From the sequence record CP054387.1: DNA of 64,000 nt, one strand, 5' to 3'. Position numbers: made by a program. Shown in pieces: positions 30,001-36,000 of this stretch; position 1 is the first letter of the stretch, and each line of letters starts with the position of its first letter. This stretch comes from Escherichia phage CMS-2020a.

Positions 30001-33000
30001 ACGCTCCAGAATCCACTCAAAATAGCTTTCCTGAATCGGGTTGAACTGCATGTCTCCCATATGCTTAAAGCTAACCAGAGAGTCATCCAGACGGGTTGTT
30101 GCGCGTCTGGCTAATTTCTCTTCAAATATCTCAATCAGTTCTGGCTGCCACAAATGCTGTGGGCGAGGCAGCTTGTCCCACAAACGTCGTGCAGCTGCGG
30201 AAAGCACGGTGGAGATAAAGTAGTCGTATGAGCAACAATAGCGGTCAGCAAACTGGCGTGCTTTCCATAGCGACGTTTTATTGGCAGTCGACAACTCCTG
30301 ATAAGGCAGGCGTTTTAACCCGGTGGTGAACGGAGCTGTTTCAAAGTGTTCGCGACCGTGCGTCAGCATGATATTTGAGTACTGACGTTTGTATGCCTCC
30401 GTAAACAGACAGGTGGCCATAAGAGGATGCATGTCGCGGTAATCAAACCACTTCGTATCGAAGAGTTCAGCCTCGTCTTTGCAGCGCGACAAACCAATGT
30501 TTTCAGCAACCCACTTATCCATAACAGCGGTATTCCACTCTGTCATGAAGTCGTACTGGTCGTTGTCGATGGTGTCGAAAAAGATTTGGCTCATGTGGCT
30601 CACCTGATAGGTAGTTACTTACTTATCACAATGAGCTGATGATAGCGATTGGTGGCAGTTTTTGGAAGTGGAAACGGAAGGGAGTTGTTCTGGTGGGTAT
30701 CTTTTGAAAGACCTGCTTCCGTATATTTAATAAGTTACTTATTATTTATATATACAGAAACAGGTCATGAATACTTAATTATTAAGCAATCTGCTCACAC
30801 GTAGTTTGTTAAGACTTGATCTAGAGGCCAGTTTCGTTAATGCACCTATTGCTTTATTCGTGATTTTTTGCTGTTCTTCTGTTAGTTCTTGCATACTTTT
30901 GAATCTGAGCAACCCCTTTCTCACTAAATCCAAAGCATCCTGATTGCGGGATAATATCCACTTTAAATAATCATCTTCAGAGAAACTGTTAAGATATGCT
31001 ATGTCACTATGATTAAATTTGCCTTCAATTATTTTGTATAAAACATTCTCTAAATTAGTCTCTTCAGGCTTCTTATCCATCAATTTTTTTTGAATTAGCA
31101 GACCTAACTTTTCGTTACCAAATATCTCTACATACAAATTCCGAAAAGCAGTATAAGCATCATCTTGGCTAACAAAGGCATCTGCATATGCCTCTATATA
31201 ACTATCACAATCAATCTTCAATCTATTTAAGATATCAATCAAGCCTATGAAGTGAGCAACAGGTATGTGTGAAAGATTGTCGTTAATTACACATTTTATC
31301 TTAGAAATAAACTCAGATTCATTGTCCTTGAATGAGTCACTAAAAATATCCCAAACATTGTTAACATCACATAAAGCCTTGTGTTCTTTATATTGTTTAT
31401 TTTTTTCTTCTATTATACCTCGAATATTGCTTTCAGTAGAAAGATAACCATTCTTGAGATAAAAATCTATGTCATCATCGAAAGCAATTTCCGCTCGTTC
31501 ATAAATAACATCAAGACTATTAATAAATGAATATACAGAATCATCCTTTTTATCATCTAACATGTGATCAAATACATGTATGTTTTTAATTGATTCTTTA
31601 AACAAGGCATAATCAACACCTGGAACACCAGAATAGTAAACCACTGAAAACAGAACCAATCTATTGATAAAACTTTCTCTAACCTTATCCTCTGCCAAGC
31701 TTAGCTCATTCCTAAGATTAACCAGAGATGTTTTTATTTTATTTAATATACGGATATTTTTAATACCTAAGTCATTTGCTAAGACTTTTAACAAAAGAAA
31801 ATCAGAATCAGTTTCATAAAAAACTTTACGTAAGTTCTTCTCAGGCGTAGGATCGTATTTTATTTCGACATCAATTACTTTTTCTCTGTACTCTAAAAAC
31901 TGTTTTTTTGCAGTTTCATCATGTAAATTATCTTCATTTAAAATTAGAACAACTTTGCAACCTTTTCTTCTTGCTAATTCATCAATAACCCCCATAATTT
32001 CTTTAACTTCTAGCGAATTACCTTTTCTTTCAACATCATCAATACAAACCAAATAATTATTAACAAATTTATACTCAAGAGATGACAGCAGGTTATCTGT
32101 TTTGAACCCAAAAAAATCGTTCTTTCCGAAATGTATTAAAAATTTTGACAAGGAGTTGTATTTCAACCATCCCCAAAACCCATTTCTATAACGAATCATA
32201 GTTCGATCCGTTTCAGATAAAATTAGTTCTTTATATTTCTTTTCATTAATTGGTGTGGCACAATGATAAAGAGCTTTTTTAATATCACCAATAGAGTTAA
32301 CCCCAAACAAAGAAACATACGAATATGCATTAAAATCTAATCCTTCAGAATGCTTAGTATAAAAACTATTCCAATAATGAGTTTTACCAACGCCCCAATC
32401 TCCTTTTATGACGGCAACCCGATGATCTGAAACTAGAAAATTTTTTAGAAATGATTCTATCGATTCCATTAGTATCAATCCTTTAATTCATATATTGGGC
32501 GTAACAAACGCCCAATATAATCAACCTTTCTTCATCAACTCTCGTTTGATTTCATCGGTACGCATCGTGACATCGGCAGCTGTGATCGCCTCGTTCAGTT
32601 TCACGATGTCCTCGATTTCCTGCGGTGACTTCTCTGCCAGATGGAAAATAGCAGCACGAATCACATCAGAGCGGGTGAATTTCTCGAAGCGAGGGATGAA
32701 CTTCATCATCTCCAGCAGTTCGAAGTATTCGTCCTCCAGTGACATTGTGCGGCTTTTAATTTTCTCTTTGCCACGAGTCGGGCGTCCCTGTGGTCTGACT
32801 GGTTGGCGCAAAGGAGTTGTGTTCTTAGCCGGTGCATCAGGCTCTTTGCGCTTTGCTAGGTCACCCATTTTCATGGACATTATTCTTCTTCCTCCAGACT
32901 CAACAGATAATCTACAAATTCTTCAAACTCGGCTTCCGCCTTTTTGTCGCGCTCGCTACCGGTCATTTCAAAGATAGAACGACCAGACTCTTCCGCATCA

Positions 33001-36000
33001 TCATAGACGTTGCGGTTATATAGATTGACTGGCGCAGACTCGATGCCAAACGTCTCAACAATCTCTTTAGCCGCCAGAATGCGAGACACTTGTGATGGCA
33101 AAGCCGGGCACTGGTTCATGACCGCGCGGACCTTCACTTTATCGTTTACATTGCGAACATTGTCGATAATAGGATCGATGTCACGTAAAGATTTCAAATC
33201 ACGACGCTTAGGACGCAGCGGGATAATGATAACGTCAGCCATCAGCATCGCTTGTCGCTGAATTTCGGAGTCGAAGCCACCAGCATCTACCACTACAAAC
33301 TCAGCTCTACCCTGAAGCGATTTTAGGTGCTTAATGATGTCATCCTGAACGTATGCAAAAGGAATCAGCTCAAGGTCTTCGTTCTGTCGACGGTCTTCAC
33401 ACCAGCTCGTTGTCGTGCGCTGAATATCTATATCGGTAATATAAACCTTCTTCTTCTTTTTGACTTTCAGGCAAACGGCAATTTGCTGGGCAACGGTGGA
33501 TTTGCCAGGCCCGCCCTTTGTGCCGCCAACCACAAAGATCTTGGTCATTGGAGAGTTCCCTTTGCGTATATAATTATCGTCTGAAACAACTTGTTTTCTT
33601 ATATGTGATATAGCCTAAATGCCTACGGCTGCGGTGTAAAGGTTAAATGGCAGGTTGTGATTAACAATTGGCAAACATAGCTTGTATTTGTCTGTTGAAA
33701 AAAGTAACAATGACCTCTATATTACAAGTACGGTGATATGCTGTACACAATTTGATAATGCACACGTAATGGGCTATAGCCTTTTAAAGTAATTTTTGAG
33801 TCGAAAACTCAGTTTGAACAGAGGAGATTGATGGCCTTCCTACATCACGGCCATCAGGAGGAATACATGTCAGCACTAAAAAAGCAGCGCATCGATTTGA
33901 GATTAACCGATGACGATAAAAGCATCATCGAGGAAGCTGCCGCAATGTCTAACCAGAGCATTACTCAGTTTATGGTTAGCAGTGCATCTGAACGTGCCGT
34001 GAAAGTTATAGAGCAACACCGTAGACTGGTTCTGAATGAAGAATCCTGGAATCTGGTTATGGACGCTATAAGCAATCCTCCGGCACCGAACGACAAGCTG
34101 AAACGAGCTGCTGATCGTCTGAAAAGCATGGAGTAGTTTACTCGTGGATAATATAAAGATAGAAATTTTCTCTGGAGAGAAAGATTATGATTTGAATGGT
34201 TTTGATTGCGGTGAAGAATCACTAAATACCTTTTTAACCAACCACTTAAAAAGGCAGCATGAGGGAAAAATTCTTCGCGCTTATGTGCTTTGCACGAAAA
34301 AAGGCAGACCAAAAGTGTTAGGGTATTACACTTTGTCAGGTAGCTGCTTTGAAAAGGAGTCCTTACCTTCAAGAAGCCAGCAAAAGAAGGTACCTTATCG
34401 GAATGTTCCAAGTGTTACTTTGGGTAGGCTGGCTTTGGACAAGTCCCTTCAAGGTCAAGGATTTGGCTCAATGCTTGTAACACATGCAATGCGCGTTGTG
34501 TACAATGCATCTCTTGCTGTAGGCATTCATGGACTTTTCGTTGAGGCGTTAAATGACAAAGCCAAGGCGTTTTATAAAAGTTTAGACTTTATCCAGCTGG
34601 TTGGTAACAACGAGCGTTCTTTGTTCTATCCTACAAAATCTATCGAAAAATTGTTCGAAGAATAATGTACTCCCCTCAAGTGAGGGGAACTTCGCATCAC
34701 CAACCGCAAACTCTCTCTCCCATCGTATTGTGAAAAAGGATTTGGCGTTCGGTTTCTTCGGTCATCACATCATTATTGCTGATATAGATAGGCCCAGCTC
34801 CATCGCAGAACAATACGCTGGCGGTTTGTGGTTTAATGACGCACCCACTTATCATACAACTCACGATGAACGGCAGAAGCATCTTTCTGACGTATTTTAT
34901 TGCTCGTCTCATTCACCACTTCCACTGTGCTTTGAAGTCGTTTTCTGTCTTCCTGTTTTGCCTTCTCTTCCATTGCTCGTCGCGCCGCATTCCCGCCCAT
35001 CGTGTAAGCGCCGACAAGAACGAAAAGAACGGCAGCCAGCGTAATCAAAGCAACTTTTAGCTTTGTCATCAGGCTGCCTAGCATATTAGACCATCCCTTT
35101 CTGGTGTCTTCTTACCTGCGACCAGGCAATGAATCCTGCCACAACAATAGTGGCAATACCGAAGATGATGCGTACTGTATCCCCACTAGAGATATGACCT
35201 TGTGCTTTATCCATAGCAGCGGAAACCTGCGGCATAACATCGGCCAGCTGCGCCAGACCAATACCTGCTGTAACAGTTGCGCCTGCTGTTTCTTTAGTTA
35301 CAGGAACAGCCTTCACGGTTTTCACCGGCTTAACGACTCCAGCTCGACGCAGACCTTCCTCAATAACTTCTGCCGCATACCAGGTGTTCAGCGTTTTTAG
35401 CGGACCTCGCCCATTCTCATGGCGAATGATTGCCTCAACCAAAGGTCGAAGGATGTCGTAATCATGCAGATCGATGATCATGTCTGCGGTTACACCAACG
35501 GCTTTAGACACCTCATTAATGTAGGCGTCAGTATTGTTTTCATTCGGCGGTGCCCAACGTTCAATAACTTCACGAATGGTATCGATACTTGAGCCGTCTT
35601 TTGCGCGACGTTTGTCGTGGTAGGTAATTAGAGTCACCGCCAGCGCACGAATCCCCCAAACAGGGTCTTTAAACGTGCAAAAGCGCGGTTCGTCTGGATT
35701 CGCAACCAGACCTTGCCACGGTGATCCTTTATCAAGATTACCGGGGTTATTATTACGAATGCCTCTCGGAGTCTTCATCCTTGTTCTCCTGTTATTGCAG
35801 TCCATTTTTTACGCCATATGCGGCTAATCCTAAAATTAGTGCGGTTATAATAAACGACGTCACTTTAGAAATAATGCCTCCAAAGAAGCCGCTTGAGATC
35901 GAATCTAACCTATTAAGTAGTTTATCCAGATTGGAATGTTGAATACTGTGTTGAGCCGGAGTCATGTCACCAAAATAGTTTTTCAACTGCTCATGAACCT

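What the first reader, a model, noticed from the sequence alone, without database searches (positions are those of the whole stretch)
32521..33548. ParA partition locus beside the toxin-antitoxin pair supports an extrachromosomal lifestyle
A 222-aa ParA with deviant Walker A and an abutting small basic protein form a type I partition cassette. This is not expected in an integrating temperate phage. The centromere site is not identified; candidates are the region upstream of parA or the iterons.
Basis: partly seen in the sequence, partly recalled or inferred. Interest (0 to 1): 0.5.

Follow-up and report, generated by a model that had tools for sequence, protein, structure and literature searches.

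The report
Partition cassette of an SSU5-like phage-plasmid
The two genes are real and form the plasmid-segregation module of an already well-known family of phages (SSU5/pHCM2-like) that live as free plasmids rather than integrating, so the finding is correct but largely ordinary; only the small partner protein and its DNA target remain uncharacterised.

Summary
A 222-aa ParA-type ATPase (32880-33548, minus strand) has a deviant Walker A and no N-terminal DNA-binding domain. Its stop codon overlaps by one base the start of a 119-aa basic protein (32521-32880).

The window is an SSU5/pHCM2-like phage-plasmid. The cassette occurs in 774 PLSDB plasmids. In 5,426 complete E. coli genomes it occurs at 265 places, all on plasmids and none on a chromosome. 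The phage terminase/portal genes show the same pattern (245 on plasmids, 0 on chromosomes). The extrachromosomal reading is therefore supported, and it is already known for this group.

ParA is closest to ParF of TP228 (type Ib). The small protein belongs to a narrow, unannotated family (phrog_5111) that nearly always follows such a ParA. It is probably a ribbon-helix-helix (RHH) centromere binder, but the evidence for that fold is weak.

No repeat-array centromere exists. The best candidate is an about 80-bp block upstream of parA (33574-33655), which is more conserved than the genes themselves. The RepA iterons are rejected: SSU5 lacks them, yet its small protein is 93% identical, with no differences after residue 55.

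The palindrome inside the block is not par-specific. It is a promoter-proximal motif found across the whole genome.

Interest is low.

The parts
32880..33548 (-). parA: a 222-aa Walker-type partition ATPase of type Ib size, with deviant Walker A KGGPGKST at residues 11-18 and no N-terminal HTH domain
   Evidence: The best solved relative is ParF/TP228 ParA (4dzz, 5u1g; E 1.2e-10, residues 9-199). NCBIfam ParA_partition matches full-length at E 1.9e-33, but its 115.7 bits are below the curated cutoff of 180.
32521..32880 (-). Small basic partner protein (119 aa), the putative centromere-binding protein. It has a conserved N-terminal MGDLAKR peptide, a disordered basic linker, a probable ribbon-helix-helix core (about residues 42-82: SRTMSLEDEYFELLEMMKF...TRSDVIRAAIFHL) and two further C-terminal helices.
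   Evidence: The protein itself has no Pfam hit. Distant family members hit RHH_1/RHH_8. Four of the five distant members examined sit directly after a ParA-type ATPase.
33574..33655 (-). Conserved non-coding block upstream of parA. It is the only non-coding DNA that travels with the two genes across relatives, and it is the best candidate for the promoter/operator and centromere.
   Evidence: Homology to SSU5, Klebsiella, Citrobacter and Enterobacter relatives ends at about 33655 and about 32520. In 30-nt windows spanning 33574-33648, 80-97% of columns are invariant, against 37-90% in the coding sequence (mostly 55-80%, highest over the putative RHH region). The par-specific part has no second copy in the window.
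33612..33640 (-). Putative sigma-70 promoter: -35 TTTACA (33635-33640), a 17-nt spacer, and -10 TAGGCT (33612-33617). The invariant spacer and -10 hold two TAGGC boxes 8 bp apart (33621-33625 and 33613-33617), a candidate operator.
   Evidence: Read from the sequence. The same TT(T/G)(A/T)CA-N17-TAGGCT arrangement occurs upstream of parA in two distant relatives, L017 and L008. The consensus scanner did not call this promoter, because the -10 matches only 3 of 6 positions. This is inference only.
33584..33596 (.). 13-bp palindrome AAACAAGTTGTTT, within the gene-sense motif AGAAAACAAGTTGTTT, 36-48 bp upstream of the parA ATG. It is one copy of a genome-wide promoter-proximal motif and is not specific to par.
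   Evidence: The window has 5 copies with at most 1 mismatch, against 0.01 expected. SSU5 has 18. pMT1, which lacks this cassette, has 5.
33867..34136 (+). TacA (DUF1778) antitoxin, part of the divergently transcribed addiction module in a variable slot next to the par cassette
   Evidence: Pfam TacA1 E 5.7e-26. The slot is occupied by other genes in SSU5, Klebsiella and Citrobacter relatives.
34144..34665 (+). TacT-like GNAT acetyltransferase toxin
   Evidence: Acetyltransf_7/_1 E 1e-6; phrog_1758 E 1e-50. It is annotated KacT-type in phage Cyrano.

Best explanation
This is the plasmid-partition module of an SSU5/pHCM2-like phage-plasmid, a temperate siphophage of about 105-115 kb whose prophage is a low-copy circular plasmid. 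The module is a type Ib-like two-gene operon.

The proposed mechanism is as follows. The 119-aa protein dimerises through a probable ribbon-helix-helix domain. It binds a cis site in the about 80-bp conserved block just upstream of parA, and in doing so probably also represses the par promoter. Its conserved N-terminal basic peptide (MGDLAKR) contacts ParA and stimulates its ATPase. ParA-ATP dimers coat the nucleoid, and the plasmid-bound partner complexes are moved apart by the usual ParA gradient (diffusion-ratchet) mechanism, so that each daughter cell inherits a prophage copy. The adjacent TacA/TacT pair adds post-segregational killing.

Shown here: the genes, their homologies, their conserved pairing, the conserved upstream block, and the exclusively plasmid location. 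Inferred: the RHH fold, the binding site, ATPase stimulation and autoregulation.
For: ParA identity:
- Deviant Walker A, 222 aa, no N-terminal domain.
- Nearest solved structure is ParF/TP228 ParA (E 1e-10).
- NCBIfam ParA_partition matches full-length at E 2e-33; phrog_164 at E 4e-51.

Partner protein:
- One-base stop/start overlap with parA.
- The family is narrow: 25 clusters at 90% identity, and 21 representatives among 1.84 billion proteins.
- In 4 of the 5 most distant members examined it again follows a 221-229-aa ParA/MipZ-type ATPase, at the same place after the lysis genes of SSU5-like phages.
- The N-terminal G-x-L-x-K peptide and the SRT-x-S-x-E-[DE]-E...RSD-[VI]-x-R-A motifs are conserved.
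- RHH_1/RHH_8 hits were found for two family members at the equivalent residues.
- The AF2 model has a disordered residues 1-47, then helices at 48-59 and 70-82 as expected for RHH helices A and B.

Cis site: the upstream block is the most conserved part of the cassette, and homology ends right outside it.

Lifestyle:
- 774 PLSDB plasmids carry the cassette, 740 of them predicted non-mobilizable.
- 264 of 5,426 complete E. coli genomes carry it, at 265 places, none chromosomal. The terminase/portal genes show the same pattern.

Functional equivalence: pMT1 of Y. pestis shares the backbone but lacks this cassette (no tblastn hit). It carries instead a large ParA plus ParB-family pair next to a Phd/RelE toxin-antitoxin module.
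Against: - No experiment on this par system was found in the searched literature.
- There is no array of iterated repeats of the kind that defines known type Ib centromeres.
- The most striking element in the upstream block, the palindrome, is shared with at least five other promoters in the window and about 18 in SSU5, so part of the block's conservation is explained by something other than partition.
- ParA scores below NCBIfam's curated cutoff for ParA_partition (115.7 against 180 bits).
Confidence: 0.8

Rival explanations
1. The small RHH-like protein is mainly a global transcriptional regulator of the phage-plasmid, in the manner of omega of pSM19035 or KorB of RK2. On this reading it binds the AAAACA-N3-TGTTT palindromes that sit at the start of about 20 transcription units. 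These dispersed sites would double as centromeres, as the dispersed SopB sites do in phage-plasmid N15, and ParA would act on them.
For: - The palindrome lies in the most conserved part of the parA upstream block.
- It recurs just upstream of the helicase, CobT-like, DUF1281_C and pre-terminase genes: 5 copies against 0.01 expected. SSU5 has 18 copies.
- Relatives whose small protein is only about 50% identical, but has the same putative DNA-reading strand, keep the palindrome upstream of parA while the rest of the block differs.
- AAAACA-type boxes are present upstream of parA in 6 of 7 diverse loci, against at most 4 in shuffles.
- N15 provides a precedent for dispersed centromeres at phage promoters (cited in PMC11652158, ref. 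39).
Against: - pMT1 lacks both ParA and the small protein yet keeps five to six well-matched copies of the motif. This is weak evidence, because pMT1 is very close to SSU5 in sequence.
- Two more distant family loci (L023, L020) show no palindrome in the DNA available, and L022 has only a 1-mismatch copy.
- The motif always tracks the phage backbone, so a conventional master repressor or a promoter consensus explains it equally well.
- SSU5 annotates separate repressor and anti-repressor genes.
Confidence: 0.12
2. The adjacent small protein is not ParA's partner. The true centromere-binding protein would be one of the ParB N-terminal-domain proteins encoded elsewhere on the backbone (the SSU5_125 region), and the small ORF would be an unrelated regulator.
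For: SSU5 and pMT1 annotate ParB-like or ParB N-terminal-domain proteins next to an ABC-type ATPase. The ETEC plasmid table lists 'parB, parB-like' for a pHCM2-family plasmid.
Against: - Those genes are about 30 kb from parA.
- They are retained in pMT1, which nevertheless carries its own complete large-ParA/ParB pair.
- The small gene is translationally coupled to parA, and the pairing is conserved in distant relatives.
Confidence: 0.05
3. The ATPase is not a DNA-partition protein. It would be a MipZ-like or other cargo-positioning ParA (as some PGAP records name it), or the small ORF would be a RelE/ParE toxin (as annotated in phage Cyrano).
For: Pfam MipZ is the top Pfam hit (E 7e-14). Several RefSeq records use the MipZ name. 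Cyrano annotates the small gene as 'RelE/ParE putative toxin'.
Against: - The MipZ match covers only residues 4-132, aligned to positions 2-150 of a 262-position model. The ParA_partition and ParF matches are full-length.
- The small protein has no ParE/RelE hit in Pfam, NCBIfam or the PDB.
- The genes sit on a large low-copy plasmid that needs active partition.
Confidence: 0.03

Closest known systems
ParF-ParG-parH of plasmid TP228 (type Ib partition)
   Same: Both have a small Walker-type ParA with a deviant Walker A and no N-terminal domain; ParF is the best solved-structure match (E 1e-10). In both, a small partner gene lies immediately downstream, encoding a flexible basic N-terminal tail plus a (here probable) ribbon-helix-helix DNA-binding domain. 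In both, the cis site is expected upstream of the operon, overlapping the promoter.
   Different: The partner is 119 aa with two extra C-terminal helices, and it shows no detectable sequence similarity to ParG or to any Pfam family. No array of iterated short boxes like parH is present; at most there are two TAGGC boxes 8 bp apart. The host element is a phage-plasmid rather than a conjugative plasmid.
delta-omega of pSM19035 and KorB of RK2 (partition proteins that are also global regulators with dispersed sites)
   Same: The parA promoter carries a palindrome that is repeated at many other promoters of the same replicon. That is the arrangement seen when a centromere-binding protein doubles as a global repressor.
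   Different: Nothing here shows that the small protein binds the palindrome. The motif persists in pMT1, which lacks the protein.
Partition systems of other phage-plasmids: P1 parABS, N15 sopAB, pMT1 parABS (type Ia)
   Same: They play the same biological role, namely stable inheritance of a plasmid prophage, and are often found next to an addiction module. pMT1 shares the SSU5-like backbone.
   Different: Those systems use large ParA proteins with an N-terminal regulatory domain and HTH/CTPase-type ParB proteins. This cassette has neither.
SSU5 / pHCM2 / pSLy3-type phage-plasmids
   Same: The cassette is 86.5% identical in DNA to SSU5's, and SSU5's small protein is 93% identical. The gene order is the same: RepA, recombination, polymerase, ligase, primase, helicase, par, lysis, tail, head, terminase.
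   Different: RepA is only 48% identical to that of SSU5 and has its own iterons. The slots flanking the par cassette carry different accessory genes, here TacAT and a KAP NTPase.

Membership tests
Type Ib ParA / small centromere-binding-protein partition systems | Walker-type ATPase with deviant Walker A (xKGGxxK[ST]) | tested here: met
   Residues 10-18 read TKGGPGKST.
Type Ib ParA / small centromere-binding-protein partition systems | Short ParA (about 200-230 aa) lacking the N-terminal HTH/regulatory domain of type Ia | tested here: met
   The protein is 222 aa and the P-loop starts at residue 8. The alignment to ParF (206 aa) runs from residue 9 to 199.
Type Ib ParA / small centromere-binding-protein partition systems | Sequence membership in the curated ParA partition family | tested here: inconclusive
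   NCBIfam NF041546 ParA_partition matches full-length at E 1.9e-33, but the 115.7 bits are below the curated cutoff of 180.
Type Ib ParA / small centromere-binding-protein partition systems | Small DNA-binding partner encoded immediately downstream, with a ribbon-helix-helix fold | tested here: inconclusive
   Adjacency and coupling are met (conserved). The RHH fold is supported only indirectly. P0041 passes the RHH_1/RHH_8 cutoffs and P0027 hits RHH_1 at E 0.005 at equivalent residues. The helix pattern in the AF2 model is compatible. Against this, the window protein has no hit of its own, the NikR match is not significant (E 0.5), and the fold searches gave noise.
Type Ib ParA / small centromere-binding-protein partition systems | Centromere made of an array of short iterated repeats next to the operon | tested here: not met
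   No tandem or iterated repeat array was found in 32400-33900. There is only a conserved single-copy block with two TAGGC boxes and one palindrome.
Type Ib ParA / small centromere-binding-protein partition systems | The cassette stabilises an unstable replicon in cis | not testable with these tools
   This requires a plasmid-loss assay.
SSU5/pHCM2-like phage-plasmids | Shared siphophage backbone and gene order with SSU5 | tested here: met
   The cassette is 86.5% identical to SSU5's, and the window's gene order mirrors the SSU5 map.
SSU5/pHCM2-like phage-plasmids | The prophage is maintained as a plasmid, not integrated | tested here: met
   None of the 265 cassette places and none of the 245 terminase/portal places is on a chromosome in 5,426 complete E. 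coli genomes. 774 PLSDB plasmid records carry the cassette.
Type Ia ParABS (P1, F, pMT1) | Large ParA with an N-terminal HTH, and a ParB with an N-terminal CTPase/HTH domain, encoded adjacently | tested here: not met
   ParA is 222 aa. The small protein has no ParB-family hit.
MipZ division-site ATPases (the name used in some RefSeq records) | Full-length match to the MipZ model | tested here: not met
   Only residues 4-132 align, to positions 2-150 of the 262-position model. The PDB MipZ match covers the same N-terminal part.
TacA/TacT (DUF1778 + GNAT) toxin-antitoxin | A DUF1778/TacA antitoxin followed by a GNAT acetyltransferase toxin | tested here: met
   TacA1 scores 90.7 bits against a cutoff of 21, and Acetyltransf_7/_1 score above their cutoffs.

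The most novel reading that the evidence does not exclude
The 119-aa protein may be more than a local centromere binder. It could be the factor that recognises the AAAACA-N3-TGTTT palindrome found at the start of about 20 transcription units of SSU5-like phage-plasmids. In that case one small RHH protein would both silence or tune early phage genes and supply dispersed centromeres for ParA. This would combine the omega/KorB logic with the dispersed-centromere arrangement of N15, in a widespread family of enterobacterial phage-plasmids that carry resistance genes.
Probability: 0.12. Interest if true: 0.6.

Novelty: new member of a known kind. Interest (0 to 1): 0.2.

Why it matters
SSU5/pHCM2-like phage-plasmids are common: 4.9% of complete E. 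coli genomes here carry the cassette, and hundreds of Klebsiella, Salmonella and Enterobacter plasmids do too. The literature reports that they carry resistance genes such as blaCTX-M-15. Their stable inheritance depends on modules like this one.

The lifestyle inference adds nothing new. What remains open is modest. The partner protein family is unannotated everywhere, and mis-annotated as a toxin in one phage record. Its DNA target is unknown, and the par promoter is wired into a genome-wide regulatory motif whose binder is unidentified.

Defining the centromere would give an incompatibility or curing handle for these elements.

Tried and rejected
- Iterons as centromere: rejected. The 12 copies of TATGCTGTCAGCGGT at 1096-1629 flank a Rep_3 initiator. 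They are absent from SSU5 and pMT1, yet SSU5's small protein is 93% identical with no differences after residue 55.
- Repeat-array centromere near the cassette: none found by the repeat finder or TRF.
- Hairpin downstream of the small gene (32491-32519, perfect 12-bp arms): it lies outside the DNA shared with relatives, so it is not part of the cassette.
- Palindrome as a par-specific operator: rejected as par-specific, because it is a genome-wide motif.
- pMT1 as a test of who binds the palindrome: the motif is kept without the cassette. However, pMT1 is too close to SSU5 in sequence for this to be decisive.
- Second copies of the par-specific block in the window: none beyond chance.
- k-mer motif discovery across seven diverse parA upstream regions: only A-rich AAAACA-type words stood out, with marginal significance.
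- Fold assignment of the small protein:
  - The AF2 monomer model has mean pLDDT 65.
  - The family profile against PDB sequences gave only the NikR RHH domain at E 0.5.
  - hhalign against the neighbouring TacA antitoxin (reported to have an RHH fold, from my own knowledge) gave nothing.
- Checking whether the window is collinear with Shigella plasmid CP022461.1 by direct offset failed, probably because of indels. I therefore do not name the source record.
- Literature: no paper was found that characterises this par system or its centromere.

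
Full report

Yes. ORF listing gives a 222-aa ORF at 32880..33548 (-) and a 119-aa ORF at 32521..32880 (-).

- The first begins MTKIFVVGGTKGGPGKST. This is a deviant Walker A with the signature lysine, placed at the very N-terminus, so there is no type Ia-style N-terminal domain.
- Its TAA stop shares one base with the ATG of the second ORF (TAATG).
- The second protein has pI 9.6, and its first 47 residues have pI 11.4.
- ParA matches Pfam MipZ/AAA_31/CbiA, phrog_164 'ParA-like partition protein' at E 4e-51, and NCBIfam ParA_partition full-length at E 2e-33, although that score is below the curated cutoff.
- Among solved structures the best match is ParF/TP228 ParA, at E 1e-10 over residues 9-199.
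- The small protein has no Pfam, NCBIfam or PDB relative of significance, but it matches phrog_5111 (function unknown) end to end at E 4e-80.
- The divergent neighbours at 33867-34136 and 34144-34665 are a TacA (DUF1778) antitoxin and a GNAT toxin.

**2. What is the element?**

The cassette is 98-99% identical to Escherichia phages CMS-2020a, Cyrano and PhiR41_1. It is 86.5% identical to Salmonella phage SSU5 and about 80% identical to Klebsiella phage-plasmids.

Read in reverse, the window's gene order mirrors the SSU5 map: Rep_3 initiator with iterons, recombination genes, DNA polymerase, CobS/CobT-like genes, tRNAs, ligase, primase, DnaB helicase, par, lysis, tail, head, terminase.

SSU5/pHCM2/pSLy3/pKpn/pMT1 elements are a described supergroup of phage-plasmids (PMC7969092; PMC11652158; PMC8085198).

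**3. Does it live outside the chromosome?**

The data show the opposite.

- The cassette is in 774 PLSDB plasmid records, 740 of them predicted non-mobilizable and mostly 105-120 kb.
- In 5,426 complete E. coli genomes it is present in 264 genomes at 265 places. All are on plasmids and none on a chromosome.
- The terminase/portal genes give 245 places, again none chromosomal.

The window does contain a tyrosine recombinase (18631-19734). The argument therefore rests on this census, not on the absence of an integrase.

**4. The partner protein**

Its family is narrow: 25 clusters at 90% identity, and 21 representatives at E <= 1e-3 among 1.84 billion proteins.

In four of the five most distant members examined, the gene again lies directly after a 221-229-aa ParA/MipZ-type ATPase. 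The weakest hit, P0041, does not. Extended contigs show the same position after the tail-fibre, holin, endolysin and Rz genes of SSU5-like phages. The pairing is therefore conserved, and the family is essentially confined to this phage lineage.

Alignments show three conserved parts:
- an N-terminal M-G-D-L-A-K-[RK] peptide;
- a basic Q-G-R-P-x-R-G-K stretch;
- a core I-K-S-R-T-M-S-x-E-D-E-[YF] ... T-R-S-D-V-I-R-A-A-I.

The core has the pattern of a ribbon-helix-helix strand, helix A and helix B. That resemblance is judged from my own knowledge of RHH proteins. The tool support is indirect:
- P0041 passes the Pfam RHH_1 and RHH_8 cutoffs, and P0027 hits RHH_1 at E 0.005 at the equivalent residues.
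- The family profile's best PDB hit is the NikR RHH domain, aligned in register, but at a non-significant E of 0.5.
- NCBIfam gives a weak aCcr1 hit (E 2e-4); aCcr1 proteins are small RHH regulators (from my own knowledge, not tested here).
- The AF2 monomer model (pLDDT 65) is disordered over residues 1-47 and has helices at 48-59, 70-82, 86-97 and 101-118.
- Fold searches with that model gave only noise. This is expected for a fold that forms only on dimerisation.

I rate the RHH assignment as probable (about 0.6). The 'RelE/ParE toxin' label in phage Cyrano has no support.

**5. Where is the centromere?**

Homology with SSU5, Salmonella, Citrobacter, Enterobacter and Klebsiella relatives begins at about 32520 and ends at about 33655. 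The mobile unit is thus the two genes plus about 105 bp upstream.

Within that unit the non-coding stretch covered by the windows spanning 33574-33648 is the best-conserved part. In 30-nt windows, 80-97% of columns are invariant, against 37-90% in the coding sequence (mostly 55-80%, highest over the putative RHH region).

The block reads, in gene sense: CCTTTACACCGCAGCCGTAGGCATTTAGGCTATATCACATATAAGAAAACAAGTTGTTTCA.

- It can be read as a promoter: TTTACA, 17 nt, TAGGCT. The same hexamers and spacing occur upstream of parA in two distant relatives. The consensus scanner did not call this promoter.
- The normally free spacer is invariant and holds two TAGGC boxes 8 bp apart. This is a candidate operator, by inference only.
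- There is no iterated repeat array, so a defining feature of known type Ib centromeres is not met.
- The par-specific part of the block has no other copy in the window.

They are absent from SSU5, whose RepA is only 48% identical but whose small protein is 93% identical with no differences after residue 55. They are RepA sites, not the par site.

**6. The palindrome is not par-specific**

The motif AGAAAACAA-N-TTGTTT upstream of parA recurs 23-72 bp upstream of the start codons of four other minus-strand genes: the DnaB helicase, the CobT-like gene, a DUF1281_C gene, and the gene preceding the terminase, which has two copies.

- The window has five copies with at most 1 mismatch, against 0.01 expected.
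- SSU5 has 18 such copies, most just upstream of gene starts on the coding strand and usually preceded by ATAAT-N-ACCAACA.
- More distant relatives have AAAACA-N3-TGTTT(T) before both parA and the helicase gene.
- pMT1 has no homologue of either par protein. It carries a large ParA plus ParB-family pair instead, and it still has five to six copies. Because pMT1 is so close to SSU5 in sequence, this is only weak evidence that the small protein is not the binder.

The simplest reading is a backbone-wide promoter/operator motif for a master regulator, into which the par promoter is wired. The alternative, that the small protein itself binds these sites in the manner of omega, KorB or N15, cannot be excluded. 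I give it about 0.12.

**7. Mechanism, and what is shown versus inferred**

Shown:
- the genes, their homologies, their coupling and their conserved synteny;
- the conserved cis block;
- the plasmid-only distribution;
- replacement by a different par system in pMT1.

Inferred from established knowledge of type Ib systems (ParF/ParG, delta/omega):
- dimeric RHH binding to the block;
- autoregulation;
- stimulation of the ParA ATPase by the N-terminal basic tail;
- nucleoid-based ParA gradient transport;
- post-segregational killing by TacAT as a back-up.

**8. Novelty and verdict**

The lifestyle claim is correct but already known for this group, and the ParA is annotated as a partition protein in SSU5's RefSeq record.

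The partner family and its DNA target are uncharacterised, and the cassette lacks the usual repeat-array centromere. It is best filed as a new (uncharacterised) member of the type Ib kind, not as something new in kind.

Interest is 0.2.

Noticed in passing
window 5295-5310, 17706-17724, 29830-29845, 33584-33599, 61658-61673, 61683-61698: There is a genome-wide promoter-proximal motif, AGAAAACAA-N-TTGTTT (a 13-bp palindrome), 23-72 bp upstream of the start codons of minus-strand genes: a DUF1281_C gene, a CobT-like gene, the DnaB helicase, parA and the pre-terminase gene. The window has five copies with at most 1 mismatch against 0.01 expected. SSU5 has 18 and pMT1 has five to six. The binding factor is unknown.
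   Followed up: partly
window 2400-2419, 6441-6460, 9961-9980, 23651-23670, 27173-27192, 30607-30626, 40227-40246, 53619-53638, 56245-56264, 58206-58225: A second dispersed family consists of about 20-bp AT-rich palindromes, ATAAGTAnGTACnTACTTAT. Using a loose threshold (up to 4 mismatches, no chance control), there are about a dozen copies in the window, about 20 in SSU5 and about 15 in pMT1, several of them just before start codons. They may be a late-promoter or regulator site. Function is unknown.
   Followed up: partly
window 30775-32478 (-): A 567-aa KAP-family P-loop NTPase (Pfam E 1.5e-5; phrog_4740) sits in the slot just downstream of the par cassette. In relatives the same slot holds a DUF2971 protein, a GIY-YIG protein or nothing. 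It looks like an accessory or defence hotspot.
   Followed up: partly
window 33656-34700: The slot between the par upstream block and the lysis genes is also variable. It holds TacAT here and in Cyrano, E. coli pBL12EC-1 and a K. oxytoca plasmid. SSU5, Enterobacter, Citrobacter and K. pneumoniae relatives have unrelated hypothetical genes there, and some relatives have none.
   Followed up: partly
window 1-1629: A Rep_3-family initiator (1-1095) is followed by 12 iterons, TATGCTGTCAGCGGT. This RepA is only 48% identical to the RepA of SSU5 and pMT1, and the iterons are absent from both. The replicon has therefore been exchanged while the par cassette stayed the same.
   Followed up: yes
window 18250-22904: A tyrosine recombinase (18631-19734) lies tail-to-tail with a small gene that the Shigella record annotates as an XRE regulator. 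Beside them are a 637-aa protein annotated as sialate O-acetylesterase and four tRNA genes (Ser, Thr, Tyr, Asn at 22081-22904). pMT1 has the recombinase pair, but SSU5 does not annotate one. It may be a dimer-resolution system or an inserted islet.
   Followed up: no
window 30722-30771 and 61746-61795: A 50-nt AT-rich sequence occurs twice at 92% identity, 31 kb apart, in intergenic DNA. One copy is near the KAP NTPase gene and the other is upstream of the pre-terminase gene.
   Followed up: no
window 32491-32519: A perfect 12-bp inverted repeat, TATATTGGGCGT-N5-ACGCCCAATATA, lies between the start of the KAP NTPase gene and the stop of the small par gene. It is outside the DNA shared with relatives, so it is probably a terminator or insertion junction and not part of the par cassette.
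   Followed up: partly
public records (L001 Cyrano; several RefSeq plasmids; L008): Three annotation problems were seen. The small par gene is labelled 'RelE/ParE putative toxin' in phage Cyrano. The ParA is named 'division plane positioning ATPase MipZ' or 'iron-sulfur cluster carrier protein' in some plasmid records. In SSU5 and in K. quasipneumoniae pKqq_SB1124_3 the small gene is annotated too short, although tblastn shows an intact full-length homologue in the latter.
   Followed up: yes
window 62976-63641 (-) and beyond the window end: An ABC-type ATPase gene lies here. In SSU5 and pMT1 it is followed by one or two ParB N-terminal-domain proteins and a DEAD-box helicase. These backbone 'ParB-like' genes are kept in pMT1 alongside its own partition system, so they are probably not the partition partner. 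Their role is unknown.
   Followed up: partly
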